DNA of 64,000 nucleotides from positions 64,001 to 128,000 of IMG/VR virus record IMGVR_UViG_3300032401_000002; one strand, 5' to 3'. Source of the DNA: a virus. The notes beneath the pieces are model-generated. The model was not told where the DNA came from, made no database searches, and saw only the letters and a program-made list of their open reading frames with translations. The position numbers and the translations under genes are program-made. Shown piece after piece: positions 23,869-56,547 of the stretch; position 1 is the first letter of the stretch, and each line of letters begins with the position of its first letter.

Positions 23869-23878
23869 TGTCTAGTCC

Positions 23879-25882
23879 TTAGATGCCCTGGACGTTCGTT
23901 GCGTCCGTTGTGTCGAAGGTTACGCCCTGAGCGGAGTCGATGCTGAAGCTGATCGAGACCTGGTTGAGCGGGTATGCGGGTAGGTAGCTGAAGCGAACCT
24001 CAAGAGCGCTCGCGTCAGACGGGTTCCTACGAACCTGGATCGACTGGTAAGAAACCAGCGCACCCTCAGAGCGGAGACGCTCCAGGACAGCCGTGACGAT
24101 AAGCTGAACTCGGAAGTTCGACTGGTCGTCCAGGACGATCTGGCCAATGACCTCTGTGTCGATGCTCTCGCGGATGTTCTCCATCATGTACTGCTTGGCG
24201 CGAACAACATTGAACTCTCGGCGAACCAGAGTATCCGTTGCGGTGGTGATCGCATGACGTACCTGGATCGTTCCACGCTTGGCCTCAATGACCGTCAGGC
24301 CCGCCTGTGCGTCGGCGTCCTTGTCGGTCTCGGTGCGTGAGTCGTTGACTGATGTGATGACATTGATACGCTTGCGCGTCATCGGAGTCTGCACGGGGTA
24401 GCGACTAAGTGCGCCTGCGAAGGCTGCTGCTACGTACTGACCGCCGAAGAGGGCGTCCACCCCGGTGACGGGGTTAGCGAAGTTGAAGGATGACGGCGAT
24501 ACGAAGAGCACACTGTCAGCCGGGGTGCGAGCACCAATGGCCTGAGCGTGAGCCTGTAGAGTGGCCTTGGAAGCCAAGGCACCACCAGTGCCGTCCTCGC
24601 CTACGATAGCCACGAGCAACTGCTGTTGCTGCTGGGCCATGTAGTTGACATGATCCTGCACCTTCTGTAGAATCTGAAGGTTGAGGGAGTCCGTGACCGT
24701 TGTAGCCAGGTTGCCAGCGGCGATGATCGGGACGATAACGTTTACGTCTTCGATGTCGCGAAGGTTCTTAAGGGTGTCCTCCCAGTCGTTGACACTGCCT
24801 GTCGGAGTCGTGCGCGGGCTACCTTCTGTGAAGAGAGCCTGGACGATCACGCTAGCAGCGCCGTTCTCGAATGCAACCGAAGCTGCGAAAGACACTGGAT
24901 TGAGAATGTTTCCAACTGAGTCGTAAGCCGGGCCGAACTTGTCCTCGACATCACTCTGGCCGAAGCAGCGGGTCGGGAGCCAGTAGTCGCTCGGTGTCGC
25001 ACGGTAAGAGACTCGGACGGCGAGCTTGTCAGCCGAAGCGCCAATCGTAGTCGTTCCCGCCGAACGGCTTAGCTGAAGGGTTGCCCCTGTGCCGGTCAAG
25101 ATGTAGTCCAGATCGGTGGTGGTGCCCTTCTGATAGAGAGCAGAAGTGTTGGCGAATGTGCCGGGTGCTGTCTTGACAACAATGTTGTCGGCAGTTGTCG
25201 GCAGGTTGACCGGAGTCAGGTTGTTCAACTGCACCGCGATGTCGCTGAACTGAACAGCGCCAACTGTGTAGTCGAGGTAGACAGTCTGGAACTTCCTGAG
25301 AACAGTCGCCGTGTTGACCCAAACGATGGTCGGGGTTGCGCCTCCTGCGCCAACGACTGCGTAGTCCGCAACCGGGGCCAGGCCCTCGGTGCCGACCTTG
25401 ACGGTAGCCGATACGGTTCCCGAAGTGCGCTGAGCCGGGGTAGCAAGGCTCGTGCCATTAAGGACGATGGACTCGGTCTTACCGTCACCCTGCGACGGTG
25501 AACCTGAGTTCTCGAAGTACACGACAACCGACTCGCCATTGCCAATGGTGGTCTGCATCGCGCGAACGATGCTGACGATCCCCTGAGTAGTCAAGAGGGT
25601 CGAGTCAACGTTATAGTCTAGATTGGTCAGAGTGGTTGAAGCCCGGAAAGGCTCAAGGGTTACGTTGCTCGCGTCACGAACGACGATGGTGCTGGTGTCC
25701 ACGTTGAGAGCACCAAGCTGGATGGGAGTGTTGTCGTCCAGAACGAACACCTGAACGAAATCCTCATAGCCCTGTCCAGGGCCGACAATGCAGATCGACG
25801 TAGGATCTAGCAGGATGGGCGAGAACGACGGTGATACGATCTCACTGACGGTTACGCCGGGCTTTACGTATGCGAGTGCCAA
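23879..25882 (-). CDS. Contractile tail sheath protein
   Basis: N-terminal 'YVKPGVTVSE', 'AFENGA', 'IQVRHAITT' and C-terminal 'VRFSYLPAYPLNQVSISF' are sheath hallmarks. Confidence 0.92.
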   Translation of the reverse strand: MALAYVKPGVTVSEIVSPSFSPILLDPTSICIVGPGQGYEDFVQVFVLDDNTPIQLGALNVDTSTIVVRDASNVTLEPFRASTTLTNLDYNVDSTLLTTQGIVSIVRAMQTTIGNGESVVVYFENSGSPSQGDGKTESIVLNGTSLATPAQRTSGTVSATVKVGTEGLAPVADYAVVGAGGATPTIVWVNTATVLRKFQTVYLDYTVGAVQFSDIAVQLNNLTPVNLPTTADNIVVKTAPGTFANTSALYQKGTTTDLDYILTGTGATLQLSRSAGTTTIGASADKLAVRVSYRATPSDYWLPTRCFGQSDVEDKFGPAYDSVGNILNPVSFAASVAFENGAASVIVQALFTEGSPRTTPTGSVNDWEDTLKNLRDIEDVNVIVPIIAAGNLATTVTDSLNLQILQKVQDHVNYMAQQQQQLLVAIVGEDGTGGALASKATLQAHAQAIGARTPADSVLFVSPSSFNFANPVTGVDALFGGQYVAAAFAGALSRYPVQTPMTRKRINVITSVNDSRTETDKDADAQAGLTVIEAKRGTIQVRHAITTATDTLVRREFNVVRAKQYMMENIRESIDTEVIGQIVLDDQSNFRVQLIVTAVLERLRSEGALVSYQSIQVRRNPSDASALEVRFSYLPAYPLNQVSISFSIDSAQGVTFDTTDATNVQGI

Positions 25883-34579: not shown

Positions 34580-35629
34580 CTAGCTGTAGAGGCCGCGATC
34601 TGCGATGTTGGTGACAACACCAGATGCTGCCCACGAGTCAGCCTTGAGGACTCGTGCGAGGCCGCGAGCGTTCAGGATCATCATCCCGACTAGCTCGTCC
34701 ATGACCCAGCCCTTGTAGAACTGCTCCACAAGGTGGTTCTCCTCAACGTCGAGGCTGTACATGACCGGGAAGACGCCGACGTACTCTGGATCAGCGGAGA
34801 GGAAGACCTCGCCCTGCGGCACGATGACCGACTTCTGAACCTGGAACTCGCCGAACGACGTGATCTTCTCGCCTGCGAATACCTTGTCCTTGAAGCTCCA
34901 ACCCGTGACGTTGATGTCCCAGGTGTAGAGGTCGCGGATGTCCTGCGGGTGAGCAAGGACACGAGATGCCTCTAGCTGCTCGATCTCAACCATCGAGACC
35001 GCGCTGTAGAAGTCAACCGGCTCAAGCGGGTTCGATGCCCCGATGATGACGGTCTTCTCGCTCGTGTGGCCACCAGGGCCAGCCGAGATTCCGGTAGCGA
35101 TACCGCCAGTCGGGGTCTGACCCGCTGCGCCGTAATCGCCGATTGCGCCTTCGAGAAGGAGGATGAGCTTGTAGTCTTCCTGCTTCTGGATGGCCTGCCG
35201 TGACTCGTCCTGCGCGTACTCGACCGCGTTCACTCGGAGGTAGTACAAGTCCTCCTTGCGGATGCGGGGGAAGGACGCGATGCGGAAGAGGTTCGGGAAC
35301 GCCTGCTTACCTTCGAAGACCTGTAGCTTGACTTCAGAATCCGTAGCGTTCAGGATGTAAGCCTTACCGAGGTCGTCTAGGATGTCATACGGCATGAGCG
35401 GGCCGCGCTCCAGGGTGTCCTCTAGGAGGACGTTGCGTACGATACCCTCGTATCGTAGGCGGATCTGGATCGGGCCGATCATTCCCTGGCCGAGGCGGTG
35501 CATACCGCTGGCCTTGTCAGCGAGGATCGTCGCGAGACGCTGCTGCTTCTCCTGCTTGGTCAGCTTCTTGAGCGAACCGAGCTTCTCGACGTAGTCGTCA
35601 CTGTGCTTTGCTGTGCGTGCTGTAAGCAT
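34580..35629 (-). CDS. Major capsid protein (HK97-like, Bxz1-like group)
   Basis: 349 aa after the protease and decoration genes. 'RLGQGMIGPIQIRLRYEGIVRNVLLED' and 'YKGWVMDELVGMMILNARGL' resemble cluster-C actinophage capsid proteins as I recall them. Confidence 0.85.
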   Translation of the reverse strand: MLTARTAKHSDDYVEKLGSLKKLTKQEKQQRLATILADKASGMHRLGQGMIGPIQIRLRYEGIVRNVLLEDTLERGPLMPYDILDDLGKAYILNATDSEVKLQVFEGKQAFPNLFRIASFPRIRKEDLYYLRVNAVEYAQDESRQAIQKQEDYKLILLLEGAIGDYGAAGQTPTGGIATGISAGPGGHTSEKTVIIGASNPLEPVDFYSAVSMVEIEQLEASRVLAHPQDIRDLYTWDINVTGWSFKDKVFAGEKITSFGEFQVQKSVIVPQGEVFLSADPEYVGVFPVMYSLDVEENHLVEQFYKGWVMDELVGMMILNARGLARVLKADSWAASGVVTNIADRGLYS

Positions 35630-35671: not shown

Positions 35672-36217
35672 CTAGACGAGAAGCTCCACGATGACGGCGT
35701 TAGCTGACAGACGAGTCACTAGACGACCTACGTTGTTGATGACGTTTGCGCCCGCAGTGCCGACGACCTGACCCTTAGCGTTGGACTTGAAGTAGACTTC
35801 GTTGGCTACCGCGCCATCCTCCGCTGCTGCCAGCGCAGAAAGACCCGTGTCATCGAAGGCCGGTGCGAGGATCTCGAAGACCCCACCCGCTCCGCGCCAA
35901 ACACCAACGCGGTCGAAGTCGGTCGGAATGTCGGAAAGCTCTCCACCAACGAAGTTGGCGAACAGCCCAAACGGACGGTTGGAAGCTGCCGCAGCGGCCG
36001 AAACAGTTACAGCCTCTCCGACGAGCTTGTTTGCGACCTGTCCGGGAAGGATGGCCGACTTTGCACCCGTGATGGCAGTACCGCCCGAAAGCGCTCCTGC
36101 TGTACGGACGAAGGCGGAACTAAGCTGCACGTCGTACGGGTACGCCTGCGTCTGTCCATACAGAGCGCGGAGCGTGCGACGGTTGTACTTGTTCGCCAGG
36201 TTGGTTAGTCGTAGCAT
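35672..36217 (-). CDS. Head decoration / minor capsid protein
   Basis: 181 aa, Ala/Gly-rich, between scaffold and major capsid ('PFGLFANF...GVWRG'). Confidence 0.7.
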   Translation of the reverse strand: MLRLTNLANKYNRRTLRALYGQTQAYPYDVQLSSAFVRTAGALSGGTAITGAKSAILPGQVANKLVGEAVTVSAAAAASNRPFGLFANFVGGELSDIPTDFDRVGVWRGAGGVFEILAPAFDDTGLSALAAAEDGAVANEVYFKSNAKGQVVGTAGANVINNVGRLVTRLSANAVIVELLV

Positions 36218-36302: not shown

Positions 36303-38999
36303 CTAGAAGATTGAGTCCTCGAACTCGTCTTCAACTGCGTGTGCGTCGATGTCGAACGAAGCAACCGGGCGGAAGCTCGGTACTCGTCCTGCTGTCGGTG
36401 CCTTCGTGCTCGTCGCCTTGCGGAGACCAGCGGTCTTGACCTTGGCGTACGCCTCGATCTGGGCGTCAAGCGCCTGAACCGGGGTGTCCTCTAGCTCGGA
36501 CGCGCGGTCGAACTTCGCGTCAGAATCGAGGATGCCTAGCTCGACCTCAGTCTCTGCGACCTTGAGGGCCTTGTAGACCTGAGCCTTGGCGTTCGCTACT
36601 GCGACACCAATCGGGCCACCGACCTCGTTGGAGTTGTCGCCGCCAACAGGGTTAGCACCCTTGAGGCTACGGAACTCTTCACTGGAGTCGGTCTCGGTGG
36701 GGCCACCAACCTCTTCCTTCAGCGATCCGTCAAGCTGGACTCGCGTCGGGTCGTGATCGGGGAAGCCGTGGCCGGGAGAATCCCAGACGCCACTATCGTC
36801 AGCCGTCTTCTCCGTTGCGGAGACGGTGCTGAGCAACTCACCAGCATCACTCGTCACGGCATCCTGCTGACCAAGGCTATCGCCCTCGCCACCACTCCAG
36901 GTGTCCGTGTGGGGCGCGGTGAAGTCGCCCGTGTCCTTCTCTACGTTCTCGTTGTCGATGCCGCTCAGCGGATCTCCAGTGACAGCGCCCACGCCTTCTA
37001 CGTCTACACGCTTGTCAGCCTGGACACCCTCACCATTAGCAGAGGCACCGTCAGCGATCTTTGTCTGTGCGGTCATGTTGTCCTTTCGGGTTTTACTTTC
37101 GACTGGAGCCTTCGAGTCCGTGATAACCTTCTTACCAATCGGCTTGTCTGACAACTGTCGTGTAACAGGAAGGATGGGCCGTTCCTGTGTCTTAATCCGT
37201 CCACCTTGGGCGGAAGTCTTCTCAACCTTTACAGTGGCCGTCTCTGCTACCTTTGATGTGGCAGGCATAGCGCCGCCCGGCATGGGCTTGGGGCTACTCG
37301 GGTCGTTCGGGTTGGTCTGAATATCGTTGGGAGCGCCAGGCTGCTGGCCCTGTGCAGCCTGCTCAGCGTCCTGCTGATGCATCTGCTCATCGACCTCCTT
37401 GGCCTTCTCCAGGTCGGGATTGTCAAAGCCCTCGGGCGGCTCTTCGTAGTTGCAGACTTCGCAGACGCCGTCTTCCATATCGCTACCGCAGATCGGGCAA
37501 ACCTGATCCTGACGAAGTGTGTCTACCTGATCGGGAGCAACCGTCATATCTGACTGCGGCTCGGGGTTACGGTCGGCTGTTACACCACGGCCACGCAAGA
37601 TCTGCCGAATCTCATTTGCGTTCATGCCATACGAACGTGCGATGGCTTCCAAAGACTGGCCCTGTCGGTGAGCCGCCACAACGTCGTCATTCATGTTGGC
37701 CGTCTTGGCTGTTGAGCGATCCTCAAGACCAATCTGTTGTCCGGCTGCATCCCACTCTGCATCTGCTGCCTTCATAGCTGCATTGATTTCTGTCTGCTGC
37801 TCGGGGGAGAGCATGTTCCAGACGGACACGACCGAACCAGTCGAGCCTTCGCCCAGGAAGTCATTGCGATCTCCGGGGGTCTCAACGGTCGGGGTGCCAT
37901 GCTCACCATAAGGGTCATGTCGATCTCCACCCATGGGAACAGCCTGCTTGTTCCGATCAAGATGGTCAACAAGCTCCCAGAGCTTCTGGTATGTGCCAGT
38001 GCTGATTCCACTGAGAGTCTCTGCGACCTCGTCGGGTGTGTAGTAGTCAAGACCTTCGGCGGGCGGGATTGCTCCCTGTGCTCCGACGCCAGGTGCAACA
38101 CCAGCGATGTTGTAGACCGGGACTAGATCTTCCTGCTGTGCTACCTGGACTCCGTACGGGGTCTGGACGTGGTACTGAAGGATGCCACCATTGGCGGTGT
38201 AGTCCACGATCTTGCCGCTCTGGCCAGAGCCGGGGCCTCCACCGATCTGAACCTCTTCGCCAACGCGGAACTGCTGCGCGCCTTCTACCTGGACGGCAGA
38301 CACGCGAGCGGCCTTCTTGATATCGCGCACGAGCGCGGTCTCATCGGCAGGATCGAAGACAAAGCTGATCTCGAAGAAACCAATGTCGTAGCAGTCCTCA
38401 TAGGACTTCTTGGCCACCTTCTGCCCACTCGGTGTGTGGAAGTCAAAGTATGCACCCTTGGACTGGACGTGCTTGCAATATTGCTCGGGCGAGCGGGCTT
38501 CGTTACCGCAGTGTGAGCACTTGCTCAACTCTACGTTCGCACCCATGGACACGCCATCGATGTCGCCATCTACGATAGCCTTGGCGAGCTTGGGGAACTT
38601 CTTGGCATCCACTTCGAGCAGAAGCTCGATCCAGGTTGCCGGAAGGTGATTGGCGGGAGCGGCCGAGTAGTACGGGTCGAGACTTGCTGTCTTCTCGTCC
38701 TCGATGTGCAGGGCTGCGTCCACGATGACACCACGCGCCCGCTTGGGGTCGCTGTTGTGGTGGTCTACGAAGATCGGCTTGCCGATGAAGGTGCGCCAAG
38801 ACTTCTCAAGCTCAGTGGCGGGCCATCCATCGTGGTTCTTGTTGACGCGCGATGAGATCGCTCGCACGCGCACATAGACGTATCCGTCTTCAGTGCGATA
38901 GTCGTCGTACTCAGCGAACTTGGACAACGAAGCAGAGCGCTCCTTAGAGGGAGCGCTCTTGACTTCGAGGACTTCTAGCTTCGCGTACTTCTGGAACAC
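36303..38999 (-). CDS. Prohead (capsid maturation) protease fused to scaffold, with inserted SH3-like, HTH and zinc-ribbon modules
   Basis: N-terminal 'VRAISSRVNKNHDGW...TFIGKPIFVDH...GVSMG...CSHCGN...FFEISFVFDPADETA' protease domain and an acidic scaffold C-terminus. Confidence 0.85.
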   Translation of the reverse strand: MFQKYAKLEVLEVKSAPSKERSASLSKFAEYDDYRTEDGYVYVRVRAISSRVNKNHDGWPATELEKSWRTFIGKPIFVDHHNSDPKRARGVIVDAALHIEDEKTASLDPYYSAAPANHLPATWIELLLEVDAKKFPKLAKAIVDGDIDGVSMGANVELSKCSHCGNEARSPEQYCKHVQSKGAYFDFHTPSGQKVAKKSYEDCYDIGFFEISFVFDPADETALVRDIKKAARVSAVQVEGAQQFRVGEEVQIGGGPGSGQSGKIVDYTANGGILQYHVQTPYGVQVAQQEDLVPVYNIAGVAPGVGAQGAIPPAEGLDYYTPDEVAETLSGISTGTYQKLWELVDHLDRNKQAVPMGGDRHDPYGEHGTPTVETPGDRNDFLGEGSTGSVVSVWNMLSPEQQTEINAAMKAADAEWDAAGQQIGLEDRSTAKTANMNDDVVAAHRQGQSLEAIARSYGMNANEIRQILRGRGVTADRNPEPQSDMTVAPDQVDTLRQDQVCPICGSDMEDGVCEVCNYEEPPEGFDNPDLEKAKEVDEQMHQQDAEQAAQGQQPGAPNDIQTNPNDPSSPKPMPGGAMPATSKVAETATVKVEKTSAQGGRIKTQERPILPVTRQLSDKPIGKKVITDSKAPVESKTRKDNMTAQTKIADGASANGEGVQADKRVDVEGVGAVTGDPLSGIDNENVEKDTGDFTAPHTDTWSGGEGDSLGQQDAVTSDAGELLSTVSATEKTADDSGVWDSPGHGFPDHDPTRVQLDGSLKEEVGGPTETDSSEEFRSLKGANPVGGDNSNEVGGPIGVAVANAKAQVYKALKVAETEVELGILDSDAKFDRASELEDTPVQALDAQIEAYAKVKTAGLRKATSTKAPTAGRVPSFRPVASFDIDAHAVEDEFEDSIF

Positions 39000-39929: not shown

Positions 39930-40685
39930 CTACAGAGAGTCAACCCTTCGTACCTTGCATAGCGGGATCAGTCCAACGTATAGTGGTCTGTTCTCGTGTG
40001 CAGTGCCGCTACCCTCTGTGTTGATGATCGTTCCAGAGAAGTTGGTCTGCAATGTGTGGGTGATCTCGTCGCGTACGTAGAAGAGGTAGTTGATTCCTCC
40101 CTGCGGTAGCTGGATGATCTGTTGGTTGTACGTGTGATTGTGGTTCCCGCCGCCGTGGTTATGGGCAGGTATCTGAGCCAAGGACAAGATTACCTCGTTA
40201 AGTCCTCCCGTAGCCTGGGGGCCGGGTGCTCCTGCTGGCAGGTTGATGTTGCCGTTCCCCACGGCGGCGGCAGCGGTGCCATCGGCCTTATTCAGGTCGG
40301 CACCGATGATTGAACGATTCAGTAGATTCGGTAGGGTGACAGACACCACTACACCAGGGAAGTCATGGTTGACGGCCGATACTACTGAACCATCGCAAAC
40401 AAGGCAGCCGTCAGGGAGTGCAACGGTTGCGTCAGGGCGGAACCAGTGAAACACTGTGCCAATTGGCATAGCGTCTAGCTCCAGAAGTTTGACCTCTCGA
40501 TAGATACCACCATTCGTACCAGTGGTTGGAGGCCAGTCTCCAGCGGGCGGAATCCCAACGATCCCGTCCAGTGTGTCAAAGTTCTGAGTAAGCTCGGTGT
40601 GGTCGTACGAGTCAGTGCCTGCGGGCCATACCCGGAAGCGATGAACGCCCAGACTACCTGAGGGGTTTGACCAACGGTCAGCCAT
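39930..40685 (-). CDS. Tail-collar-like fibre protein
   Basis: Divergent collar motif 'MPIGTVFHW...LPDGCLVCDG...LPNL', then 'LSLAQIPAHNH...HENRPLY'. Confidence 0.65.
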   Translation of the reverse strand: MADRWSNPSGSLGVHRFRVWPAGTDSYDHTELTQNFDTLDGIVGIPPAGDWPPTTGTNGGIYREVKLLELDAMPIGTVFHWFRPDATVALPDGCLVCDGSVVSAVNHDFPGVVVSVTLPNLLNRSIIGADLNKADGTAAAAVGNGNINLPAGAPGPQATGGLNEVILSLAQIPAHNHGGGNHNHTYNQQIIQLPQGGINYLFYVRDEITHTLQTNFSGTIINTEGSGTAHENRPLYVGLIPLCKVRRVDSL

Positions 40686-41473
40686 TAGCTCTTCTCGCGG
40701 ATGAAGACCACGCGGTTGCCGCTAAGATGGCGCTGACGCCTGTAGACGCCGCCACCATTGCTCTGATCGCCCGTGCCACCTTCTGGAAGAGTGTTCCCTT
40801 CGATGGTCTCGAACGTACCCTTAGCGCGATCAATCCACTTCACGAACAGACCGATATGATCGAACGTGCCATCGCTCTGCCAGTCGTAGAGGACGAAGTC
40901 TCCCTTGAGGGGGTTGTTGGTGACATAGAGGCCATTCTGGTTAGCGAATGCCGCTGACACGATATAGGGGCAGTAGCCGAACATGAACTTGCCGCCAGCC
41001 TTGTTGTCGCACCAGGAAGCGAAGTACGCGCACCAGGGGTTACCATCTGCACCGTACCACTTGCCGAAGATCGTTCGATTGCCGAAGCCTTCGCGATACC
41101 CAATGTGCTTCTCAGCTTCGATGATCCTCTTCTCGCCTAGCGTGACCTTCTTCGCATCGGCCGCTGCCTTTGCGATTCGAGCCTTACGTCGAACCTTGTA
41201 GGTGACAGGAAGATCCTTGTACGAAGGGTGATCGATCTTGACCAAGAACGAGCGGAGCTTCGCGCCCATGTGGCTGTCGATCTGACCAGTTGGGTACCCA
41301 AGCCAATACTTGGCTCGATGAGCGGCAGCACCCGTGACCGGGCCGTACTCGCTATCAGGCTGTCCCGTGTAGAACTTCTGGTTCCAGCGGTTGTGACCGA
41401 GAAGCCACTGGGCTTCTTCGACATCCTTACCGCGTGTGTGTGGTGACGCGACTGCTAGAGTTGGAAACAACAT
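40685..41473 (-). CDS. Endolysin: peptidoglycan-binding domain + CHAP amidase/peptidase
   Basis: 'GKDVEEAQWLL...DSEYGPVT' PG-binding motif, and CHAP motifs 'PWCAYFASW...DHIGLF...TIEGNT'. Confidence 0.85.
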   Translation of the reverse strand: MLFPTLAVASPHTRGKDVEEAQWLLGHNRWNQKFYTGQPDSEYGPVTGAAAHRAKYWLGYPTGQIDSHMGAKLRSFLVKIDHPSYKDLPVTYKVRRKARIAKAAADAKKVTLGEKRIIEAEKHIGYREGFGNRTIFGKWYGADGNPWCAYFASWCDNKAGGKFMFGYCPYIVSAAFANQNGLYVTNNPLKGDFVLYDWQSDGTFDHIGLFVKWIDRAKGTFETIEGNTLPEGGTGDQSNGGGVYRRQRHLSGNRVVFIREKS

Positions 41474-41481
41474 GTCAGTCC

Positions 41482-44400
41482 TTACCAGTTGAATTGGTCG
41501 TCTGTGCCGTCAACTACGTAGTGCGTGCCGTCAAGGTCTAGGCGATCAAGGTTTCTCGCTTCGCCGCCATCTTCATCGATGAATGCCCTCTGCTCGCGTG
41601 GATCGTAGTCCTTACCGGCCAATTTCGCCATTAAACCCGGATCTACGTCCACACCACCCGTAGAAGTACCCTCCAGAAGCCATGTACGGTCTTCTGGGGC
41701 GTCTCCAGCGTATGCCCCAGTGAATGTGTCAAGTGAGACCATTTCGTCCTCAGAATCGCTTACAGCGCTGTTCTTGGAGTCGAGGTCGGAAATGTCATCC
41801 TGCTGGGGTGCTCCATCCATGCCGGGACGCGGGGGAGCTTCCTGATCCTGGAATCCATCTCCACTGTCCGTGATCTGGTCAGCGGGGGCTGCCGACGTGA
41901 ATGTGGTACCATCTGTGTCTACCTGCTGCTTCGTAAGCTCGTGTCGGTAGGAGACGCCATCACCAGAGTCCACCGTGTAGGTGATCTTGTCTGGGAGAAC
42001 TCTCTCGACTACGATCCGATCTGGGATCGCGAACGCGCCCGTCTTCATCTCGTACTCCTGACCTTCTTCGATCTGAGCGCCCTGATCATCTACCCAAGAC
42101 TGTCCCTTGTCGGGATGATGAAGCTGATGGGGCTGCTGGGCTGCACCAACGCCACCCTCCTGCACTCTCTCTTCGCCTGCGGCGTAGAATGCGAACTCAG
42201 CATCAGTGGCTCCTCGATGGGCGAACATCTCGTCGTAGCTCGGCTGTCCGCGCTCATAGGCTTCATTGATCTCGTCTGATTCTGCGTACGGATTGAAAGC
42301 CTGTGCCTGATCATCCTGACCAAAGGAGATGCCGCACTGTCGGCACTGGTTCTGACCAGGGCCTGTTTCTACACCAGGGCCACCGCAAGCCGGGCAAATC
42401 GAGCCAGGCATGTCGGTGTCGTTATGAAAGTCAGATTCTGCAATCCAGTTGCCAACCTTGGTGACAACCTTGGTGGGCTGAATCGCTGGGCCAATTGGCC
42501 CGGAAGCTGTGCCGGGGGCAACCTGATTCCCCTGCTGCGCAAGCTGCTGCTGCATGCTCGCATCAGGGCACGGGGTGCCAGCAATGTGGGACTGGCCACA
42601 CATCGGGCAAGTCGGATTCTGTCCTACAGGTACGCCTGCCGCCTGGCCTGCGCCCGGCTGCGCGAACTGCATCGGCGCGACACCAGCCATGCCAGCTTCC
42701 TTGATGCTTTCTCGCGAGGCGTCACATTCATCGCAGTGGCAATCTGACTCGTGCTCGGTAACGTCGTCATCGTCGTCATCGCTCGCTAGGTAGTCCCAGA
42801 GCGAAGCCTCCTTGGGCTTCTTCTCGTTGGCCTTCGGCTCGTCATCCGATGCTTCATCCGAGTCGTCTGAGTCATCCGACCCCTCATCCGAGATAGCCTC
42901 TTCTAGTGGCGATGTACCATCTTCCTGATCAAGACCATCCTTGTATCCGGGGAAGGCTTCTTCAAGGAGTGAATCTAGAGCTACCAAGATCGGGTTGTTA
43001 GTGCCCGGCTCGTCTGAGTCAGCAAACTCCATCACGAGCGGGAGGTTCAGGTGGAAAGCCTTCATGGCCTTGTCCTGCATCTCAGGATCGCCGTGACTGT
43101 TGATATCCTTGTCGGGGCCGTCAGGCGACTTGCCACCGCCTGTACCGTCAACATCCTTCAACTGCTCGGGGCCGTCACCCTGCTCCTTCTTGCCGCCGAT
43201 GCCGCTGTCTGAAGCCTCATCTGTGGAGTTGGTACCGTCGTTCTTGGTTGCCCAACCATCTTCTTCTTCGCCGAAAGTGTCGGCCGTCTTGGAGACGAGT
43301 CCGATCTGCGAGGTATCGGTAGGATCTAGCGGGGCTGCACCGGGTGCGCCACCGCCTCCACCTTGACCACCAGGGGATACAATGTTCCTACCTACACCCT
43401 GGACAGCACCCTGACCTAGCGCGCGGGTCATCATTCCACCTACGCCCGCCATGCCGCCAGCTTCTGCACCGGCTGCCGCTGCGCCGCCGCCAATGCCCAA
43501 CGCCTCACCGACACCCATCAGGGCAGGGATAGCGAGAGGGGCTGCTGTGACTTGCTGTGTGTGACCGCACGTATGACATACAGACGTGGATGCCTGCCTA
43601 ATCATCGGGGAGTAACACTCGGGACAACTATCGAGGGGCGCTGCGTTGGCCTTGTGCCAAGCTAGCTCTTCATCGATGTGTGCGAAATACTCGGGCTTCA
43701 AGTTGATGTGTCCTCCACGTTGATGTTGGTACTGCATGATCTGATTCCAGGCATCGCGCTTCTGCCCTGGAGACCAATCCGCTGTAGCACCAGGCATCAC
43801 AGTGATAGTATGGGAGTTCGGTTCAATCTTTAGGTAGTTGCCTGTCTCGACTTTGTTGTACTCGCCCTTGATGTCGAGGATCACAGGAATGCCCTCGGTG
43901 GTCGCCAGAACGGCCGCATGTGAGGTCATACCACCCGTTGCGGTGATGATTGCGCGCACACCTTTCTGCCATAGCATGAAGTCTTCAGGCTGAAGATGTT
44001 CGGCCACCAAGATAGCGTTCGGGGTGATCTCACCGTTCGAGCGTTCCTTGACCCAGGCGACTCCGGTGATGACTTCACCTTGCTGTTGGGGAGAGATGAT
44101 CCACGTTCCTCCATGAATCTCGACGGGCTGGAATACCTGGCCCTTGCCCTGCGAGGGCGCTCCACCAATCGGGCCATGAAGAGTGATGTTGGCACCAAAG
44201 GCTTGTTCGATCTGCTGCTGCGCTGACTCTTGGTTGAACTGTGTTCCGGGGAACACCCTCTGCACGTCGGCCGTGCCATCGTTGTAGACTGACCCAAGAG
44301 CGGCACAATCTTGCGGGTACCGAAGTCCGTTGCGCTCCGCTAGCTTCTCATGCACTGCATGAACACCATGCTCAAAGTGCATCTGACCTTGCTTGTCGAT

Positions 44401-44970
44401 AATCCACTTACCGATCTCGACCTTCATGTTCGCATCGCCTGAGAACATAGCGTCCCAGTCTTCTGCGGTGACCGTGCGGCTCGCAATCTTCTGGGCCATC
44501 TTCCAGGTCGCCAAGTTCATGGACGGATACGAGTCATCTGTCTTCATGCGGTTGCGCTTCGGCTCGCGCTCGGGCATGCCGTCTAGGTGATGCTCCTGCG
44601 GTGCCGGGTCGTTGTAGACGAACTCGTCGTCTTTCTTGTTCCACTCAGGAGTCAGGTCTTTGCCGCATGTGGGGCATGCCCGCAAATCCGTGCTTTCTTG
44701 GCACAATGGGCAGTTGACAACTGTATTGCCCGTGAATCCGTGCATTGCAGCCATGTGCCCTTCAAGCTCGGGAACGCCAGCTAGCTCGGAGTGTTCTAGC
44801 TGATTCTGGTTGAACAAGTCGTTGTCACCACCAGTCGAGTGACCACGGTCAGGCCCAAGCCCGTTGTCGGGAGCTTTGATGTAGGTCTTCGACTCGGGTT
44901 CCCAGATCCAGACTGTGCCGGGATCTGTAGGATCGCTGAAGCTAGGCATGGGTAGATCGGGCATGGTCAC
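41482..44970 (-). CDS. Large acidic multidomain head-region protein containing a PEP-utiliser mobile (phospho-His) domain and zinc ribbons
   Basis: 'ILVAEHLQP...AIITATGGMTSHAAVLA...GIPVI', several CxxC pairs, and C-terminal 'EQRAFIDE...ARNLDRLDLDGTHY'. Confidence 0.75.
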   Translation of the reverse strand: MTMPDLPMPSFSDPTDPGTVWIWEPESKTYIKAPDNGLGPDRGHSTGGDNDLFNQNQLEHSELAGVPELEGHMAAMHGFTGNTVVNCPLCQESTDLRACPTCGKDLTPEWNKKDDEFVYNDPAPQEHHLDGMPEREPKRNRMKTDDSYPSMNLATWKMAQKIASRTVTAEDWDAMFSGDANMKVEIGKWIIDKQGQMHFEHGVHAVHEKLAERNGLRYPQDCAALGSVYNDGTADVQRVFPGTQFNQESAQQQIEQAFGANITLHGPIGGAPSQGKGQVFQPVEIHGGTWIISPQQQGEVITGVAWVKERSNGEITPNAILVAEHLQPEDFMLWQKGVRAIITATGGMTSHAAVLATTEGIPVILDIKGEYNKVETGNYLKIEPNSHTITVMPGATADWSPGQKRDAWNQIMQYQHQRGGHINLKPEYFAHIDEELAWHKANAAPLDSCPECYSPMIRQASTSVCHTCGHTQQVTAAPLAIPALMGVGEALGIGGGAAAAGAEAGGMAGVGGMMTRALGQGAVQGVGRNIVSPGGQGGGGGAPGAAPLDPTDTSQIGLVSKTADTFGEEEDGWATKNDGTNSTDEASDSGIGGKKEQGDGPEQLKDVDGTGGGKSPDGPDKDINSHGDPEMQDKAMKAFHLNLPLVMEFADSDEPGTNNPILVALDSLLEEAFPGYKDGLDQEDGTSPLEEAISDEGSDDSDDSDEASDDEPKANEKKPKEASLWDYLASDDDDDDVTEHESDCHCDECDASRESIKEAGMAGVAPMQFAQPGAGQAAGVPVGQNPTCPMCGQSHIAGTPCPDASMQQQLAQQGNQVAPGTASGPIGPAIQPTKVVTKVGNWIAESDFHNDTDMPGSICPACGGPGVETGPGQNQCRQCGISFGQDDQAQAFNPYAESDEINEAYERGQPSYDEMFAHRGATDAEFAFYAAGEERVQEGGVGAAQQPHQLHHPDKGQSWVDDQGAQIEEGQEYEMKTGAFAIPDRIVVERVLPDKITYTVDSGDGVSYRHELTKQQVDTDGTTFTSAAPADQITDSGDGFQDQEAPPRPGMDGAPQQDDISDLDSKNSAVSDSEDEMVSLDTFTGAYAGDAPEDRTWLLEGTSTGGVDVDPGLMAKLAGKDYDPREQRAFIDEDGGEARNLDRLDLDGTHYVVDGTDDQFNW

Positions 44971-47995: not shown

Positions 47996-49816
47996 CTAGC
48001 TGGAGAGTGACGCCCATTCCGATACCTCTTCCCAGTCTTCGTTTGAATGCTTGCGCCACCAATCCTTGATTGCTTCTTCCGCGTGTTCGCGAACTTCAGG
48101 CTCGGATAGCTGGGTGTGCTTGATCTTGATCTCGGAACCACTCGTGCGTAGCTCGCCCGTGTCGGTCTTTGTGGTGTCAATGTCCATCATCGCGTTGCCC
48201 GTGTCCACGCCGAACTTGTCGAGTAGCTCCTGGAGTATGTCTGTCACCTTGAGATTATGATCCCATTCCTTGATCACAAGTTCGCTCATGTAGTAGACGA
48301 ACAAGTAATCAGGATCGCTGTCTTCGTCTGCTGCCGCCTTCAGGTTCTGGGACGGTACGCGCTGTGTCTTACCGGACTGGTAGTCCTTGACAAGCATGTG
48401 CTCGCCATCAGCCCCCAACACGATTCCAAGTCCGCCACCAGGCGTTGTGACTTGCGTCCCCTTGGCGAAGAGCGGAGCGCCAGTCTCAGTGATCGTCTCT
48501 GTGCCGGTAGGCTCGGACAATGCGTGACCGCATGTTCCTGCCATGCACTTCTGCATGCGGCGGGCTGTCTGCTGGTGAGCCAACTCGATGTTGGCCTTGC
48601 CGTGGTCGCCGTAGCCTGTTACGATGTGGTTGTAGCCGTCAGTGTCCGTCCACTGATAGACGGGCTTGCCGTTTCCGCTGTACCGATTGAAGCCCCATCC
48701 AAGCTCTTGGGCCAGTCCGTTCTCTCCGACTGCTCCGACCACAACGCGCGAGACGGGCTTGAGCGTGCGCTCGGGATCTTCGCCACATGAGGGACACTCG
48801 ATGCGACCCTTGTGCTCGGCCTCGCGCTGGTACGTCACACCGCAGTGGTGACATCGCTTGATCGTGTGCTTGTGCTTGCCCTTCTTATCAACGATCTTCA
48901 ACTCATGCACGTCCTCCTTGAAGGTGAACTTGCCCTCGTCATCTCTCTTGTGCTCGTCTTCCTCGAACGCGGTCTTGGAGATAGCAGGCCCGAAGACATC
49001 ATCGATGTCAGACCAATCATCGCCGCCAATCGCTTGGTCGGGGAGGTTAGCATTCTCGACGGCCAGAGCTTGTGACTGCGGGTCGGGAGTCTTGAAGGGG
49101 TTGAGATGACTGAAGTCATACGTACCTACCGTGATCATCTGCTTGTTGCCGATCCATGTGTCCGTTAGCCCCTCACGGAAGAAGACATACGCCTTGTCGG
49201 TGAAGAAGTTGAGGCGGACTCCGATCAGGGCGGGCTTCAGTCCATTCGCCATGCAGTAAGCGATCTTGGCCGCACGCTCGTCCTTGCCACCGATCTTGAA
49301 TCGCTCCTGGGCTTGCGAGTGGTTCGTCTTGATCTCGACCCCGAAGTTGCCGCGCTCGCTGCGAATGATGGCGTCAATCGGGAAGGTGTTCTGATTCGAA
49401 GCTGGCTCAACTGCACCAATACCTGGAAGCTCTCCGAGACCCAGGACAACCTGCTCGCCGATGTCCCCCATCTGCGAAAGCGTTAGACCAGATCGCGTAC
49501 GCCCACCAGGATTCAGCACGGGCTTGCCGCTGCCGTCCGGGTCTTGAATGTGACTCTTGGAATCGTCCAGGTAGTTGTCCGTGTAGCCGCAATGAGGACA
49601 AGTGAACTCGCCACCGTTCTGCTCGATCTCCTGCATTTCACTTTGTGCAAAGTGATAACCGCACTTGGGGTTAGTGCAGTGAGCAGACGGATCTACATGA
49701 TGCTGTTCGTTCGGGCCTGTCAGTTCAGCTACCGCGTCATCGACGTACTTGGGTCGTGCGACGGGCATAGCAACGGCCTGCCAGTTTCCGATCTTCTCCC
49801 AGTCAAAGACAGTCAT
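47996..49816 (-). CDS. Multidomain protein: zinc ribbons + PD-(D/E)xK nuclease-like domain + further small domains
   Basis: 'GDIGEQVV...PIDAII...GVEIKT' nuclease motif, CxxC pairs, and an 'EHKRDDEGKF' motif. Confidence 0.7.
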   Translation of the reverse strand: MTVFDWEKIGNWQAVAMPVARPKYVDDAVAELTGPNEQHHVDPSAHCTNPKCGYHFAQSEMQEIEQNGGEFTCPHCGYTDNYLDDSKSHIQDPDGSGKPVLNPGGRTRSGLTLSQMGDIGEQVVLGLGELPGIGAVEPASNQNTFPIDAIIRSERGNFGVEIKTNHSQAQERFKIGGKDERAAKIAYCMANGLKPALIGVRLNFFTDKAYVFFREGLTDTWIGNKQMITVGTYDFSHLNPFKTPDPQSQALAVENANLPDQAIGGDDWSDIDDVFGPAISKTAFEEDEHKRDDEGKFTFKEDVHELKIVDKKGKHKHTIKRCHHCGVTYQREAEHKGRIECPSCGEDPERTLKPVSRVVVGAVGENGLAQELGWGFNRYSGNGKPVYQWTDTDGYNHIVTGYGDHGKANIELAHQQTARRMQKCMAGTCGHALSEPTGTETITETGAPLFAKGTQVTTPGGGLGIVLGADGEHMLVKDYQSGKTQRVPSQNLKAAADEDSDPDYLFVYYMSELVIKEWDHNLKVTDILQELLDKFGVDTGNAMMDIDTTKTDTGELRTSGSEIKIKHTQLSEPEVREHAEEAIKDWWRKHSNEDWEEVSEWASLSS

Positions 49817-54549: not shown

Positions 54550-56547
54550 TCAACGACCTGTTAAGCCCGTATAATGGCCACCTTGCGGATACGATTGATA
54601 CAATCCGGGGGTGCGAAGCTCTTGCATTCCAGTCAGATGAACTGGCTTGCCTAGGTGTTCTTGTGCCGCATGAATGACATCATGGACGCCAACCTGATTG
54701 CCCCACTGGTTGCCGTACAAGCCATAGCCACCACCGTCGATAGTAGGGACTGCCCACCCTGACATAGTGTGTAGCTCCTCATCTCCTTGCTGGTGACGCT
54801 TCTTGAACTCTTCCTCCAAGTGGGGGTGGCCCAGTCCGTGCCACCCCTTGCCCCGCCATCTCAGGTTCTCCTCGGGTTCGGACATGAACTCCTTGCCATC
54901 CGACACGAATCGGTGCGCCCCCTTCCAGCCACTCCAGGTCTGAGGGCCATAAGGCATAGGAGCACCGTCCTTCCAGATAGCACTCCAGTCACCCTTGTTC
55001 TCGAAGTCAGCCGATCCCCAGTCGTCTCTGTTCTCAAGGGTGCCACTCCAGTCATGGAAGTCGCGCTGGTCTGAAGTCTTACTGAGTGTTCCAGTGAAGC
55101 GGTGATCTGTGCCCTCGTTCCCGCGAGCAAAGCGAAGGTACTTGAACTCTACGGGGATCTTCGAGTCCAGCTTCGGAAGTTCGTCATCCCAGTCGTAGGC
55201 CAGTGTGATGTGAGGCGTCCAGCCATACTCGTCCGACACGTTGAAGCCAGCCTCGTTGCAGGCAGTCGTTAACTCGTGACGTAGCTCAGCCAACTGCGGG
55301 ATCGCAGGAGCAGCCCATAGCACTGGCTCTTCGTTGCTGAAGACGCCATAGCCGCCGATCTCGCCGCTCAGGGCAGGGAACTTCTTGGCGAACTGGGCTA
55401 CGATCTCCTCGACCTCGTCCCAGTCATCACGGTCGGCAGCCTTGTCCGTGAAGTAGCACAGCGTGATGTGCATCATGTCTACCGGCTCGCCACCCTCGAT
55501 CTTGATCTTCTCCCCGACCTTCTTGGGTAGGAAGACCGCGATCATGGCCCCTGACATATCAGCATCGGCCTTCTTGCGCAAAGGACGTAGGAGCCGCTTT
55601 AAGGCTCTGAACTTACTATCCGGGGTGTCTATGCCAACAAGCCCTACGTGCTCCTTAGGAGCCGCTACAGAGGCGTACAGACCCCCTCTAGCAGTGTTTC
55701 CCAGGTGATCTTGCGCCCATGCGGCGCTGGCGGCATGATCTACAAGCGTTGAGGGGTCTGTGCTGAACTCGACTCCGAGATTCTCGTGGTCTTCCTGAAC
55801 GGTCGGAAGGTAGATCTGAGAGTCAGGATAGAGCTTGGCAACTTCGGCCTTGACCTCCTGGATGACCTTGATCGGTGTATCGATACGTGATACTTCGATC
55901 TCGACGGCATCGCCCTCGGGGATCGCGTACCCAAGGTAGTCCTTGCCTCTTACGGTCACGCGGCCCCAGGTGTCCGAGGCTGCTTCGTCATGAGTCGGAC
56001 GCTGATCTTCGCCAGTCTGCCACAAGAGCAACCCCTCGGGATCGCCATAAATCCACTTTACGATCTTGCCCTCCCCTGCGTGTGGGTCGGGCGCGAAGGC
56101 GTCATCCCATTCGAACGCCAGCTTGGGCTGCTTGAAGGAAGCGATCTTAGCCTTCCGCGCCACGCTTCCGGGGAAGTTGTCTTCGAACCAGTCGAACACA
56201 CCTTGGGGGATCTCGGCCTTGTAGTACGCCTGGATGAGTACCACGGGAGGAGCTACCATCGTACCGTCGAGCTTCTTCTCGGCGGGGATGAACTGAGCCA
56301 GCCCTAGAATGTCTCCCGATTGCGCGGAAGGTTCTCGACCCATCTGGATCTCTAGCTGTCCACGATGGCTGCCAGGCTGATCTTCCATCGTCAGCCTACC
56401 ATCTACGCCGCCCTTGACCCTCCAGACGTGAGTCTGGTTGGTCTGAGCATCAAACCCCCACTTGAAGTTGTACGGCCAAGCAGGGTCGAACTCCTCGGGT
56501 GATCCGATGGTGTTGTCTACTTGGGGTATGGGCTTCCAGTCATCCAT
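54550..56547 (-). CDS. Multidomain protein with 2H phosphoesterase (2'-5' RNA ligase/Acb1-like) domain
   Basis: Two HxT motifs, 'MHITLCY' and 'TPHITLAY', about 86 aa apart. Confidence 0.8.
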   Translation of the reverse strand: MDDWKPIPQVDNTIGSPEEFDPAWPYNFKWGFDAQTNQTHVWRVKGGVDGRLTMEDQPGSHRGQLEIQMGREPSAQSGDILGLAQFIPAEKKLDGTMVAPPVVLIQAYYKAEIPQGVFDWFEDNFPGSVARKAKIASFKQPKLAFEWDDAFAPDPHAGEGKIVKWIYGDPEGLLLWQTGEDQRPTHDEAASDTWGRVTVRGKDYLGYAIPEGDAVEIEVSRIDTPIKVIQEVKAEVAKLYPDSQIYLPTVQEDHENLGVEFSTDPSTLVDHAASAAWAQDHLGNTARGGLYASVAAPKEHVGLVGIDTPDSKFRALKRLLRPLRKKADADMSGAMIAVFLPKKVGEKIKIEGGEPVDMMHITLCYFTDKAADRDDWDEVEEIVAQFAKKFPALSGEIGGYGVFSNEEPVLWAAPAIPQLAELRHELTTACNEAGFNVSDEYGWTPHITLAYDWDDELPKLDSKIPVEFKYLRFARGNEGTDHRFTGTLSKTSDQRDFHDWSGTLENRDDWGSADFENKGDWSAIWKDGAPMPYGPQTWSGWKGAHRFVSDGKEFMSEPEENLRWRGKGWHGLGHPHLEEEFKKRHQQGDEELHTMSGWAVPTIDGGGYGLYGNQWGNQVGVHDVIHAAQEHLGKPVHLTGMQELRTPGLYQSYPQGGHYTGLTGR

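What the first reader, a model, noticed from the sequence alone, without database searches (positions are those of the whole stretch)
43790..44090. Stand-alone PEP-utiliser phospho-histidine (swivel) domain inside a phage structural-region protein
Seen: a complete motif 'ILVAEHLQP...AIITATGGMTSHAAVLA..EGIPVI' with the His intact (codon at 43918-43920). No ATP-grasp or PEP-binding domain is visible in the 1162 aa protein. Established: this domain carries phosphate in PTS enzyme I, PEP synthase, PPDK and rifampicin phosphotransferase. Inference: an injected phospho-acceptor or decoy that taps or drains host PEP/PTS phosphorelay, possibly resetting carbon signalling. This is very unusual cargo for a phage.
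Basis: partly seen in the sequence, partly recalled or inferred. Interest (0 to 1): 0.72.

Follow-up and report, generated by a model that had tools for sequence, protein, structure and literature searches.

The report
Orphan phosphohistidine domain in phage head-module protein
A large protein encoded next to the capsid genes of an uncultured 150-kb actinophage-like virus carries the phosphate-carrying "swivel" domain of PEP-using enzymes, with its histidine intact but none of the partner domains that normally load or unload it; this is conserved in related uncultured phages, I found no paper describing it, and its function is still untested.

Summary
ORF 41482-44970 (-), 1162 aa (database start two codons in), matches Pfam PF00391 at aa 316-380 (E 7e-15, 54.8 bits, cut-off 23.1). 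His351 is encoded at 43918-43920. An AF2 model gives the swivel fold (Z 12.6 to the pyruvate kinase C-terminal domain, 12.1 RPH, 11.3 EI).

No ATP-grasp, PEP-binding or HPr domain was detected in the protein or in the 150-kb genome. The preceding small alpha/beta domain matches no known fold and is not an ATP-grasp.

The Ser-His-Ala core is kept in 28 of 28 swivel-bearing homologues, and two distant relatives also have an orphan swivel with the His.

The protein is modular. Hundreds of metagenomic proteins and all cluster C mycobacteriophages (Myrna gp96, Alice gp89 with LysM) share its chassis or at least its C-terminal tail. The gene lies upstream of the prohead protease and capsid genes. 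The N-terminal cargo varies: swivel, plus GNAT in some.

I read it as a virion-associated, probably delivered, modular protein whose swivel is a working phospho-carrier charged in trans by a host enzyme. Delivery and phosphorylation are inferred. A stoichiometric "drain" of PEP is unlikely.

The parts
41482..44970 (-). Whole gene 'X', 1162 aa from the GTG start; probable true start is the ATG at 44964 (1160 aa)
   Evidence: P0002 is 100% identical over aa 3-1162
44641..44970 (-). N-terminal region aa 1-110: conserved beta-hairpin, disordered stretch with the conserved motif GGDNDLF, and zinc ribbon 1 (C87, C90, C99, C102)
   Evidence: alignment A1; AF2 model; weak DZR match
44128..44523 (-). 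Pre-swivel domain aa 150-281: two helices, then a small b-b-a-b-b-a-b core (aa 185-270, pLDDT above 94). No convincing known fold; not an ATP-grasp
   Evidence: best Z 5.2; Foldseek E 0.2 or worse
43786..44127 (-). PEP-utilizers swivel (phosphohistidine) domain aa 282-395; the Pfam match covers aa 316-380 (43831-44025)
43918..43920 (-). Codon CAT of His351 in the motif GGMTSHAAV
   Evidence: conserved in 28 of 28 homologues
43546..43785 (-). Linker helices aa 396-441 (helix 401-417 aligns with the helix that follows the EI swivel domain) and zinc ribbon 2 (C449, C452, C465, C468; invariant)
43306..43545 (-). Gly/Ala/Met-rich hydrophobic low-complexity segment aa 476-555. It holds the most hydrophobic 19-mer of the protein (Kyte-Doolittle 1.43, borderline for a membrane segment)
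42931..43305 (-). Conserved acidic middle domain aa 556-680; part of the chassis shared with relatives that lack the swivel
42106..42930 (-). Variable acidic linker with two further zinc ribbons, aa 681-955
41485..42105 (-). Conserved C-terminal domain aa 956-1162, the part most widely shared in the superfamily
41518..41631 (-). C-terminal tail motif aa 1114-1151 (ends ...ARNLD-LDL-GTHY), shared with the C-termini of Myrna gp96 and Alice gp89 (54-56% identity)
40685..41473 (-). Neighbour: 262-aa CHAP-domain peptidoglycan hydrolase-like protein
36303..38999 (-). Neighbour: 898-aa protein with an N-terminal prohead-protease domain; homologue of Myrna gp97 and Alice gp90
34580..35629 (-). Neighbour: major capsid protein (55% identity to Myrna and Phabba); the 181-aa gp98-like protein at 35672-36217 lies just upstream

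Best explanation
Gene X encodes a large modular protein of the capsid-gene module of a Ceeclamvirinae-like phage.

Shown:
- A conserved chassis occurs in hundreds of metagenomic proteins: zinc ribbon, Gly-rich hydrophobic segment, acidic middle domain and C-terminal domain. The C-terminal tail motif is also kept in cluster C mycobacteriophages.
- The N-terminal cargo varies. Here it is a novel small alpha/beta domain packed against a PEP-utilizer swivel domain, flanked by zinc ribbons. Some relatives add a GNAT, and Bixzunavirus carries a LysM elsewhere in the protein.
- The swivel keeps the complete phosphohistidine site.
- Neither the protein nor the phage encodes a domain that could load or unload it.

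Inferred:
- The protein is incorporated into the head through its conserved C-terminal part and enters the cell with the DNA, as T4 Alt, the T4 internal proteins, T7 gp16 and polyvalent proteins do.
- In the cell, His351 is charged in trans by a host PEP- or ATP-dependent enzyme of the same family (EI, PPDK or PEP synthase).
- The module then either passes the phosphate on with the help of the adjacent novel domain, or occupies the host enzyme's catalytic domain as a mimic of its own swivel arm. Either way it perturbs PEP-dependent phosphotransfer early in infection.
For: - Domain identity and fold.
- Site under selection: the swivel is the most conserved segment of the protein (mean pairwise identity 59.5%, against 35-58% for the other segments). 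G346, S350, H351, A352, A356 and P362 are kept in 28 of 28. The one relative with a decayed domain (P0031) has lost the whole motif.
- Recurrence: two distant chassis members, P0119 and P0167 (about 29% identity in the swivel), also carry an orphan swivel with GGxxSH and no other PEP-enzyme domain.
- No partner. The adjacent domain is not an ATP-grasp.
- Head-module setting and modularity: the order X, then protease fusion, then a 181-aa protein, then the capsid protein is kept in L004, L006, L007, Myrna and Alice. The C-terminal tail is conserved in 206 Mycobacterium and 2 Rhodococcus phage genomes. L006 X shares only aa 429-676 and 960-1152. Of 403 hits among 50% representatives, most match only the middle or C-terminal parts. 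The GNAT lies 120-190 aa after the swivel in 4-5 relatives.
- Established knowledge (my own, not tested here): T4 Alt and the internal proteins are head-packaged and injected; T7 gp16 is an ejected core protein with an enzymatic domain. GNATs and multi-enzyme strings are typical of polyvalent proteins (PMC5512222).
Against: - No proteomic or structural evidence places X, or Myrna gp96 or Alice gp89, in virions. I found none in the searchable literature.
- In this genome the portal gene is about 65-80 kb away, so the 'between portal and protease' argument that holds in Myrna does not apply here.
- Canonical swivel domains are loaded in cis. Efficient trans-loading by a host enzyme is assumed, not shown.
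- This phage's own copy departs from the family consensus at two glycines after the His helix (G366D, G368K; 1 of 28), which could weaken it.
- The best structural match is the PykA-type PEPut domain, which works as a regulator rather than as a shuttle.
- The Arg that follows the His helix in canonical enzymes (SHAAxxAR) is S, T or A in most family members.
Confidence: 0.4

Rival explanations
1. Regulatory or binding module without phosphate shuttling (PykA-PEPut-like). The swivel fold, with its TSH-type motif, serves as a docking or allosteric element. It could bind a host PEP-enzyme domain, a replication protein or a virion partner, and the His is kept for binding or for being phosphorylated as a switch.
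For: The top structural match is the C-terminal PEPut domain of Geobacillus pyruvate kinase (Z 12.6, 24% identity). That domain keeps the same motif outside any dikinase, and in B. subtilis it regulates PykA activity and replication initiation (PMC9009071). No donor or acceptor domain exists in the phage.
Against: Near-absolute conservation of the whole phosphoryl-binding loop across lineages at 29-60% identity fits chemistry at the His at least as well as binding. No binding partner is identified.
Confidence: 0.25
2. Catalytic core of a new phosphotransferase. The novel alpha/beta domain (aa 185-270; conserved E185, W189, D192, H207, S227, Y229, D235, Q237) is the acceptor-binding or hydrolytic partner of the swivel. 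It would phosphorylate or dephosphorylate a specific host molecule, in the manner of rifampin phosphotransferase or two-component dikinases, with the loading subunit supplied by the host.
For: The two domains are predicted confidently as one packed unit (pLDDT about 90 over aa 150-420) and co-occur in all close homologues. The small domain has its own set of nearly invariant polar residues. Split dikinases with separate subunits are known (lead from earlier finding e1-1316668).
Against: No ATP-grasp or PEP-binding subunit is in the genome. The small domain has no significant structural relative: best Z 5.2, and a phosphohistidine-phosphatase PHPT1 match at only Z 4.2. The distant member P0167 has the swivel after only about 85 residues, so the small domain is not obligatory.
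Confidence: 0.15
3. Purely structural or assembly role. The protein is a prohead core, scaffold-like or fibre-associated component. The swivel is a co-opted fold with no role in the host cell, or the protein is a late cytoplasmic protein that is never packaged.
For: Its position beside the protease, scaffold-like and capsid genes, with fibre-like and CHAP neighbours. It has long disordered acidic linkers, as scaffold and core proteins do.
Against: A structural co-option would not be expected to keep the exact phosphohistidine loop in every lineage while the rest of the protein drifts. Relatives carry other enzyme-like or ligand-binding cargo in the same protein (GNAT, LysM), which suggests activity on host targets.
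Confidence: 0.1

Closest known systems
Swivel (phosphohistidine) domain of PEP-utilising enzymes: PTS enzyme I, PEP synthase, PPDK, rifampin phosphotransferase (Pfam PF00391)
   Same: Same domain by HMM and fold. Same GGxTSHAA loop with the His at the start of a helix. A helix follows the domain as in EI.
   Different: All of those enzymes carry an ATP-grasp and/or a PEP/pyruvate-binding barrel, and EI also has an HPr-binding helical insert, in the same chain or operon. Here none is present in the protein or the phage. Full-length family cut-offs are missed by far, for example EI at 45.8 against 341.7 bits.
PEPut domain at the C-terminus of Firmicute pyruvate kinase (PDB 2e28; B. subtilis PykA, PMC9009071)
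   Same: A swivel domain with the TSH-type motif used outside a dikinase. It is the best structural match (Z 12.6, rmsd 2.8, 106 residues, 24% identity).
   Different: There it is fused to a metabolic enzyme that it regulates. Here it sits in a 1162-aa phage head-module protein with zinc ribbons and no pyruvate kinase domain.
Myrna gp96, Alice gp89 and the equivalents in all cluster C mycobacteriophages (Ceeclamvirinae)
   Same: Same size class (1155-1271 aa). Same position directly upstream of the protease-fusion gene, a roughly 180-aa gene and the major capsid gene. Same extreme C-terminal tail at 54-56% identity.
   Different: No swivel domain. Alice gp89 has a LysM domain instead. Outside the C-terminal 40-145 aa the sequences are not alignable.
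Polyvalent proteins of phages and conjugative elements (Iyer et al. 2017, PMC5512222), and head-packaged injected enzymes such as T4 Alt
   Same: A long polypeptide that strings disparate enzyme-like domains (swivel, GNAT in relatives) between linkers, encoded in the phage late or structural region. GNAT is a listed polyvalent-protein domain.
   Different: None of the hub domains of that class (MuF, zincin-like MPTase and others) was detected. The paper does not mention a swivel or PEP-utilizer domain. Packaging is not demonstrated.
Phage-encoded PPDK-like proteins (Stenotrophomonas phage DLP3, Vibrio phage VHS1 group)
   Same: The only deposited phages whose DNA matches the swivel module (31-37% identity over about 80-110 aa).
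   Different: In four of the six records the match is annotated as a pyruvate phosphate dikinase gene; one is an unnamed VHS1 protein and two records carry no annotation. I did not examine their domain content or gene neighbourhood.

Membership tests
Pfam PF00391 PEP-utilizers mobile domain | HMM score above the gathering threshold | tested here: met
   54.8 bits against 23.1, E 7.3e-15; 61.3 bits in the genome search
Pfam PF00391 PEP-utilizers mobile domain | Catalytic His in the GGxTSHAA loop | tested here: met
   GGMTSHAAV with His351, codon 43918-43920; kept in 28 of 28 homologues
Pfam PF00391 PEP-utilizers mobile domain | Swivelling beta/beta/alpha fold | tested here: met
   AF2 model against 2e28 (Z 12.6), 5hv1 (Z 12.1), 2wqd (Z 11.3), 2fm4 (Z 8.9). 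This is a predicted structure, not a solved one.
PEP synthase / PPDK / rifampin phosphotransferase (dikinases) | ATP-grasp nucleotide-binding domain (PPDK_N, PF01326) in the chain or in a partner subunit | tested here: not met
   Not in the protein. No hit at E<=1 in the 150-kb genome. The adjacent domain is not an ATP-grasp. ATP-grasp_3 gives nothing, and ATP-grasp_4 gives only a 12.9-bit hit in an unrelated ORF. The genome is estimated 93% complete.
PTS enzyme I / PEP synthase / PPDK | PEP/pyruvate-binding TIM-barrel domain (PF02896) | tested here: not met
   None in the protein or the genome at E<=1
PTS enzyme I | Full-length equivalog score, and an HPr partner | tested here: not met
   TIGR01417 gives 45.8 bits against a cut-off of 341.7, covering the swivel part only. 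No PTS-HPr in the genome. The swivel domain is one contiguous stretch of about 112 aa, with no room for EI's helical insert.
Two-component dikinases (phenylphosphate synthase PpsAB, CreHI, HpeHI) | Separate ATP-grasp subunit encoded with the swivel-bearing subunit | tested here: not met
   No PPDK_N anywhere in the phage genome. Neighbouring genes are CHAP, fibre-like, protease and capsid genes.
Pyruvate kinase with PEPut extension | Swivel domain fused to a pyruvate kinase catalytic domain | tested here: not met
   No PK domain in Pfam or NCBIfam. NF004978 matches only positions 503-582 of 590 in the profile.
Ceeclamvirinae gp96/gp89-type large head-module protein (unnamed family) | Conserved extreme C-terminal tail (...EQ...I.E...ARNLD.LDL.GTHY) | tested here: met
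   54-56% identity over 39 aa at the C-termini of both proteins. tblastn finds it in 206 Mycobacterium and 2 Rhodococcus phages. Many metagenomic members also have it.
Ceeclamvirinae gp96/gp89-type large head-module protein (unnamed family) | Position upstream of the protease-fusion, roughly 180-aa and major capsid genes | tested here: met
   Window, L004, L006, L007, Myrna and Alice. Here three small genes (CHAP, fibre-like, 291 aa) are intercalated, as in L004.
Polyvalent proteins (Iyer et al. 2017) | Several biochemically disparate domains in one phage or plasmid polypeptide | tested here: met
   Swivel, novel alpha/beta domain and four zinc ribbons here; an additional GNAT in 4-5 relatives
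Polyvalent proteins (Iyer et al. 2017) | Presence of a hub or anchor domain of the class (MuF, zincin-like MPTase and others) | tested here: not met
   No such Pfam domain in P0001 or in 30 relatives
Head-packaged, injected phage proteins (T4 Alt and internal proteins, T7 gp16 type) | Physical presence in virions and delivery into the host | not testable with these tools
   Needs virion proteomics or cryo-EM. No such data found for cluster C relatives.

The most novel reading that the evidence does not exclude
A family of phages delivers, with its DNA, an orphan phosphohistidine carrier. Host EI, PPDK or PEP synthase loads it in trans, and it diverts or blocks PEP-dependent phosphotransfer. 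That would be a new class of phage effector aimed at the central PEP/PTS phosphorelay, riding on a widespread cargo-swapping virion chassis.
Probability: 0.2. Interest if true: 0.8.

Novelty: new variant of a known kind. Interest (0 to 1): 0.55.

Why it matters
Phosphohistidine swivel domains are known as internal shuttles of metabolic dikinases and of PTS enzyme I. Finding one alone, under strong purifying selection, in a capsid-module protein of many uncultured phages suggests that phages use the host's PEP-dependent phosphotransfer in a way not yet described. It also defines a widespread modular phage protein family whose chassis or C-terminal tail occurs in hundreds of metagenomic clusters and in all cluster C mycobacteriophages. 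The variable N-terminal cargo of that family (swivel, GNAT, LysM, many unknown) is a natural catalogue of candidate host-directed activities. Cultured relatives such as Myrna and the Bxz1-like phages would make the chassis testable, though they lack the swivel.

Tried and rejected
1. ATP-grasp remnant before the swivel. phmmer gave a collinear but insignificant alignment of aa 152-280 to the end of the PEP synthase ATP-grasp (4.8 bits, i-E 100). Folding aa 145-300 alone gave a small b-b-a-b-b-a-b domain whose best hits are gelsolin-like (Z 5.2) and Foldseek E 0.2 or worse. Rejected.
2. Phosphohistidine-phosphatase (PHPT1, 2nmm) likeness of that small domain. It appears in both fold searches, but only at Z 4.2 and probability 0.35-0.51. 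Too weak to use.
3. Phage-encoded partner in trans. PPDK_N, PEP-utilizers_C, ATP-grasp_3 and HPr give nothing. ATP-grasp_4 gives 12.9 bits in tail-region ORF 7920-9995, below the cut-off.
4. Defence or anti-defence models: PADLOC finds nothing.
5. ESM Atlas on aa 145-300: best score 0.78, uninformative.
6. Profile of swivel-less chassis members against PDB sequences: nothing. One search failed because my coordinates were out of frame.
7. Pfam census of 42 chassis relatives for alternative cargo. Most N-termini have no Pfam match. The PPDK_N, PTA and epimerase hits probably belong to the unrelated large multi-swivel proteins I had included (P0107, P0147, P0168), but the tool does not say which members matched.
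IMG/VR scans for P0119 and P0167 found no loci.
9. Shared C-terminal targeting motif in other proteins of this phage: none.
10. K/R-x-A/S protease-site idea from other first-reader notes. I see semi-conserved S-K-x-A before the middle domain and K-E-A-S before a conserved Trp. I cannot show cleavage, so it is left as a lead.
11. Literature. No paper describes a swivel or PEP-utilizer domain in a phage virion protein, and I found no virion proteomics of cluster C phages.
Full report
**1. Observation**

The minus-strand ORF 41482-44970 encodes 1162 aa. The identical database protein P0002 starts at the ATG two codons in. His351 is the CAT at 43920-43918.

Pfam PF00391 (PEP-utilising enzyme, mobile domain) matches aa 316-380 at E 7.3e-15 with 54.8 bits, against a gathering score of 23.1. 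Nothing else in the protein passes except weak zinc-ribbon signals. PHROGs gives only a 'kinase' family through the same 57 residues. NCBIfam matches EI, PEP synthase, pyruvate kinase C-terminus, DhaM and PPDK models only over aa 300-395, far below every full-length cut-off.

An AF2 model of aa 1-480, built on 29 sequences, is confident from aa 150 to 420. Its aa 282-393 superpose on:
- the C-terminal domain of Geobacillus pyruvate kinase (2e28; Z 12.6, rmsd 2.8, 106 aligned);
- rifampin phosphotransferase (5hv1; Z 12.1);
- enzyme I (2wqd; Z 11.3);
- the isolated PPDK carrier domain (2fm4; Z 8.9).

Foldseek agrees, with E of about 5e-6.

**2. Is the domain really alone?**

- The window is part of a 150,167-bp IMG/VR virus record estimated at 93% complete.
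- Six-frame searches of the whole record find no PPDK_N, no PEP-utilizers_C, no ATP-grasp_3 and no HPr at E<=1.
- ATP-grasp_4 gives only a 12.9-bit, sub-threshold hit in an unrelated tail-region ORF.
- A weak collinear phmmer alignment hinted that aa 152-280 might be a remnant of the PEP synthase ATP-grasp. I therefore folded aa 145-300 separately.
- The result is two helices plus a compact b-b-a-b-b-a-b core with pLDDT above 94. Its best structural matches are insignificant: Z 5.2 gelsolin-like, Z 4.2 PHPT1, Foldseek E 0.2 or worse.
- It is not an ATP-grasp, and no solved fold was convincingly matched.

**3. Relatives and conservation**

A word-indexed search found 30 proteins of 789-1691 aa, all metagenomic, and 28 of them carry PF00391. 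In those 28:
- G346, S350, H351, A352, A356 and P362 are invariant;
- the swivel domain is the most conserved segment of the protein, with mean pairwise identity 59.5% against 35-58% for the other segments.

The single relative with a degenerate domain (P0031) has lost the entire loop. P0029 lacks the domain.

This phage's own copy is odd at two positions after the His helix: D366 and K368, where 23-27 of 28 sequences have Gly.

**4. What kind of protein carries it?**

The major capsid protein at 34580-35629 is 55% identical to those of the cluster C mycobacteriophages Myrna and Phabba. The gene order is:
- X;
- CHAP-domain protein;
- fibre-like protein;
- a 291-aa protein;
- an 898-aa protein with an N-terminal prohead protease;
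- a 181-aa protein;
- the capsid protein.

This order recurs in IMG/VR contig L004 (capsid protein 87% identical; X = P0028, 1608 aa) and, with variations, in L006 and L007. In Myrna and Alice the gene directly upstream of the protease-fusion gene is a protein of similar size: gp96 (1155 aa) and gp89 (1271 aa, with a LysM domain).

X shares its extreme C-terminal tail with both at 54-56% identity over 39 residues. tblastn finds this tail in 206 Mycobacterium and 2 Rhodococcus phage genomes.

L006 X (1045 aa) has no swivel and shares only aa 429-676 and 960-1152 with X.

An exhaustive phmmer search against 1.84 billion 50% representatives returned 403 hits at E<=1e-3 and 131 at E<=1e-10. Most align only to the middle (aa 425-735) or C-terminal (aa 940-1162) parts. 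Roughly eleven full-length clusters carry the N-terminal swivel module.

In 4-5 relatives a GNAT acetyltransferase is inserted 120-190 residues after the swivel.

The protein is therefore a conserved chassis with exchangeable N-terminal cargo. The chassis is zinc ribbon, Gly/Ala/Met-rich hydrophobic segment, acidic middle domain and C-terminal domain with tail.

Two distant chassis members also carry an orphan swivel domain with an intact GGxxSH loop and no other PEP-enzyme domain. These are P0119 (1053 aa) and P0167 (700 aa), each about 29% identical to X in the swivel. In P0167 the swivel follows only about 85 residues. The association between swivel and chassis is thus either old or recurrent.

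**5. Mechanism**

What is shown:
- domain identity;
- an intact and selected phosphohistidine site;
- absence of any phage-encoded loader or acceptor;
- modular architecture;
- the capsid-module setting.

What is inferred:
- *Packaging and delivery.* This rests on the position beside the protease, scaffold-like and capsid genes, on a strongly conserved C-terminal tail suited to a conserved assembly partner, and on cargo such as LysM and GNAT that makes sense only outside the capsid. It also rests on analogy with T4 Alt and the internal proteins, T7 gp16 and polyvalent proteins (established knowledge; PMC5512222).
- *Loading of His351 in trans* by a host PEP- or ATP-dependent enzyme.
- *A consequence for host phosphotransfer*, either as a relay with the adjacent novel domain or as a mimic that occupies the host enzyme's catalytic domain.

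I put this composite at about 0.4.

That is my inference.

The main rival, at 0.25, is a PykA-PEPut-like regulatory or binding role. That domain is the best structural match, and it keeps the same motif outside any dikinase. A self-contained new phosphotransferase with the small domain (0.15) and a purely structural or non-packaged role (0.10) remain open.

Weak points:
- there are no virion proteomics for any family member;
- the portal gene lies far away in this genome, at genome coordinates 23482-25830;
- this copy has the G366D and G368K deviations.

**6. Comparison with the known, and novelty**

The domain is a member of PF00391. The protein is not a member of the EI, PEP synthase, PPDK, RPH, two-component dikinase or pyruvate kinase families, because their defining partner domains were tested and not found.

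It resembles polyvalent proteins in logic but lacks their hub domains. The defining paper lists no swivel domain.

Among 50,697 deposited phage genomes only six match the module at all, through genes annotated as PPDK in four of them. BFVD holds only a few small swivel-fold viral proteins, such as Bacillus phage G gp139. Full-text searches found no description of such a domain in a phage virion or head-module protein.

I class it as a new variant of a known kind: a modular, probably delivered, phage protein with an undescribed cargo.

**7. Limits**

- Both structure-prediction jobs went to the N-terminal half, so the chassis domains remain unfolded.
- The earlier-findings index showed only a duplicate first-reader note on this same stretch, and first-reader notes proposing head-packaged polyproteins with K/R-x-A/S sites. 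I looked at those sites in the alignment and can neither confirm nor reject cleavage.

Noticed in passing
window 54550-56547 (-): A 665-aa protein contains a 2H/LigT-type RNA 2',3'-cyclic phosphodiesterase domain at aa 356-461 (TIGR02258, E 1.2e-11, below the cut-off). In Myrna and Alice a small stand-alone 'RNA ligase' gene sits just upstream of the X homologue, so here that domain may have been fused into a larger protein.
   Followed up: no
L006:11776-14985 (+): In a related IMG/VR phage the prohead-protease fusion protein (1069 aa) carries a Hint/intein domain at aa 154-338 (PF14890, E 6e-10), inserted within the protease region. BLAST to the window protein is split exactly there.
   Followed up: partly
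window 36303-38999 (-): The prohead protease domain (first 230 aa or so; 45% identity to Myrna gp97) is fused to a C-terminal extension of about 670 aa. Myrna gp97 is annotated 'tape measure' in its record, which looks like a mis-annotation.
   Followed up: partly
window 40685-41473 (-): A CHAP-domain, endolysin-like protein (PF05257, E 5e-9) is encoded immediately downstream of X and upstream of a fibre-like gene, inside the capsid module. It may be a virion-associated cell-wall hydrolase.
   Followed up: no
genome G000:C1:23482-25830 (-), outside the window: The portal homologue (43% identity to the Myrna portal) lies about 65-80 kb from the protease and capsid genes, whereas in Myrna and Alice it is 3-6 kb upstream of the X homologue. 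The head module is split in this phage.
   Followed up: partly
window 43867-43875 (-), aa 366-368: This phage's swivel domain reads L-D-I-K where 23-27 of 28 relatives have the canonical V-G-I-G turn after the His helix. It is the only copy with these two Gly replacements.
   Followed up: partly
window 47996-49816 (-): A 606-aa protein has a CxxC...CxxC zinc ribbon at aa 310-359, weakly similar to McsA, FmdB and the Cas12f TNB domain (all below cut-off). Zinc ribbons recur in several large proteins of this region, including four in X.
   Followed up: no
window 42880-43310 (-), alignment A1: Semi-conserved S-K-x-A (aa 560-563) and K-E-A-S (aa 720-723) sit just before conserved blocks in X and its relatives. 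They are compatible with the K/R-x-A/S protease-site idea in other first-reader notes, but cleavage is untested.
   Followed up: partly
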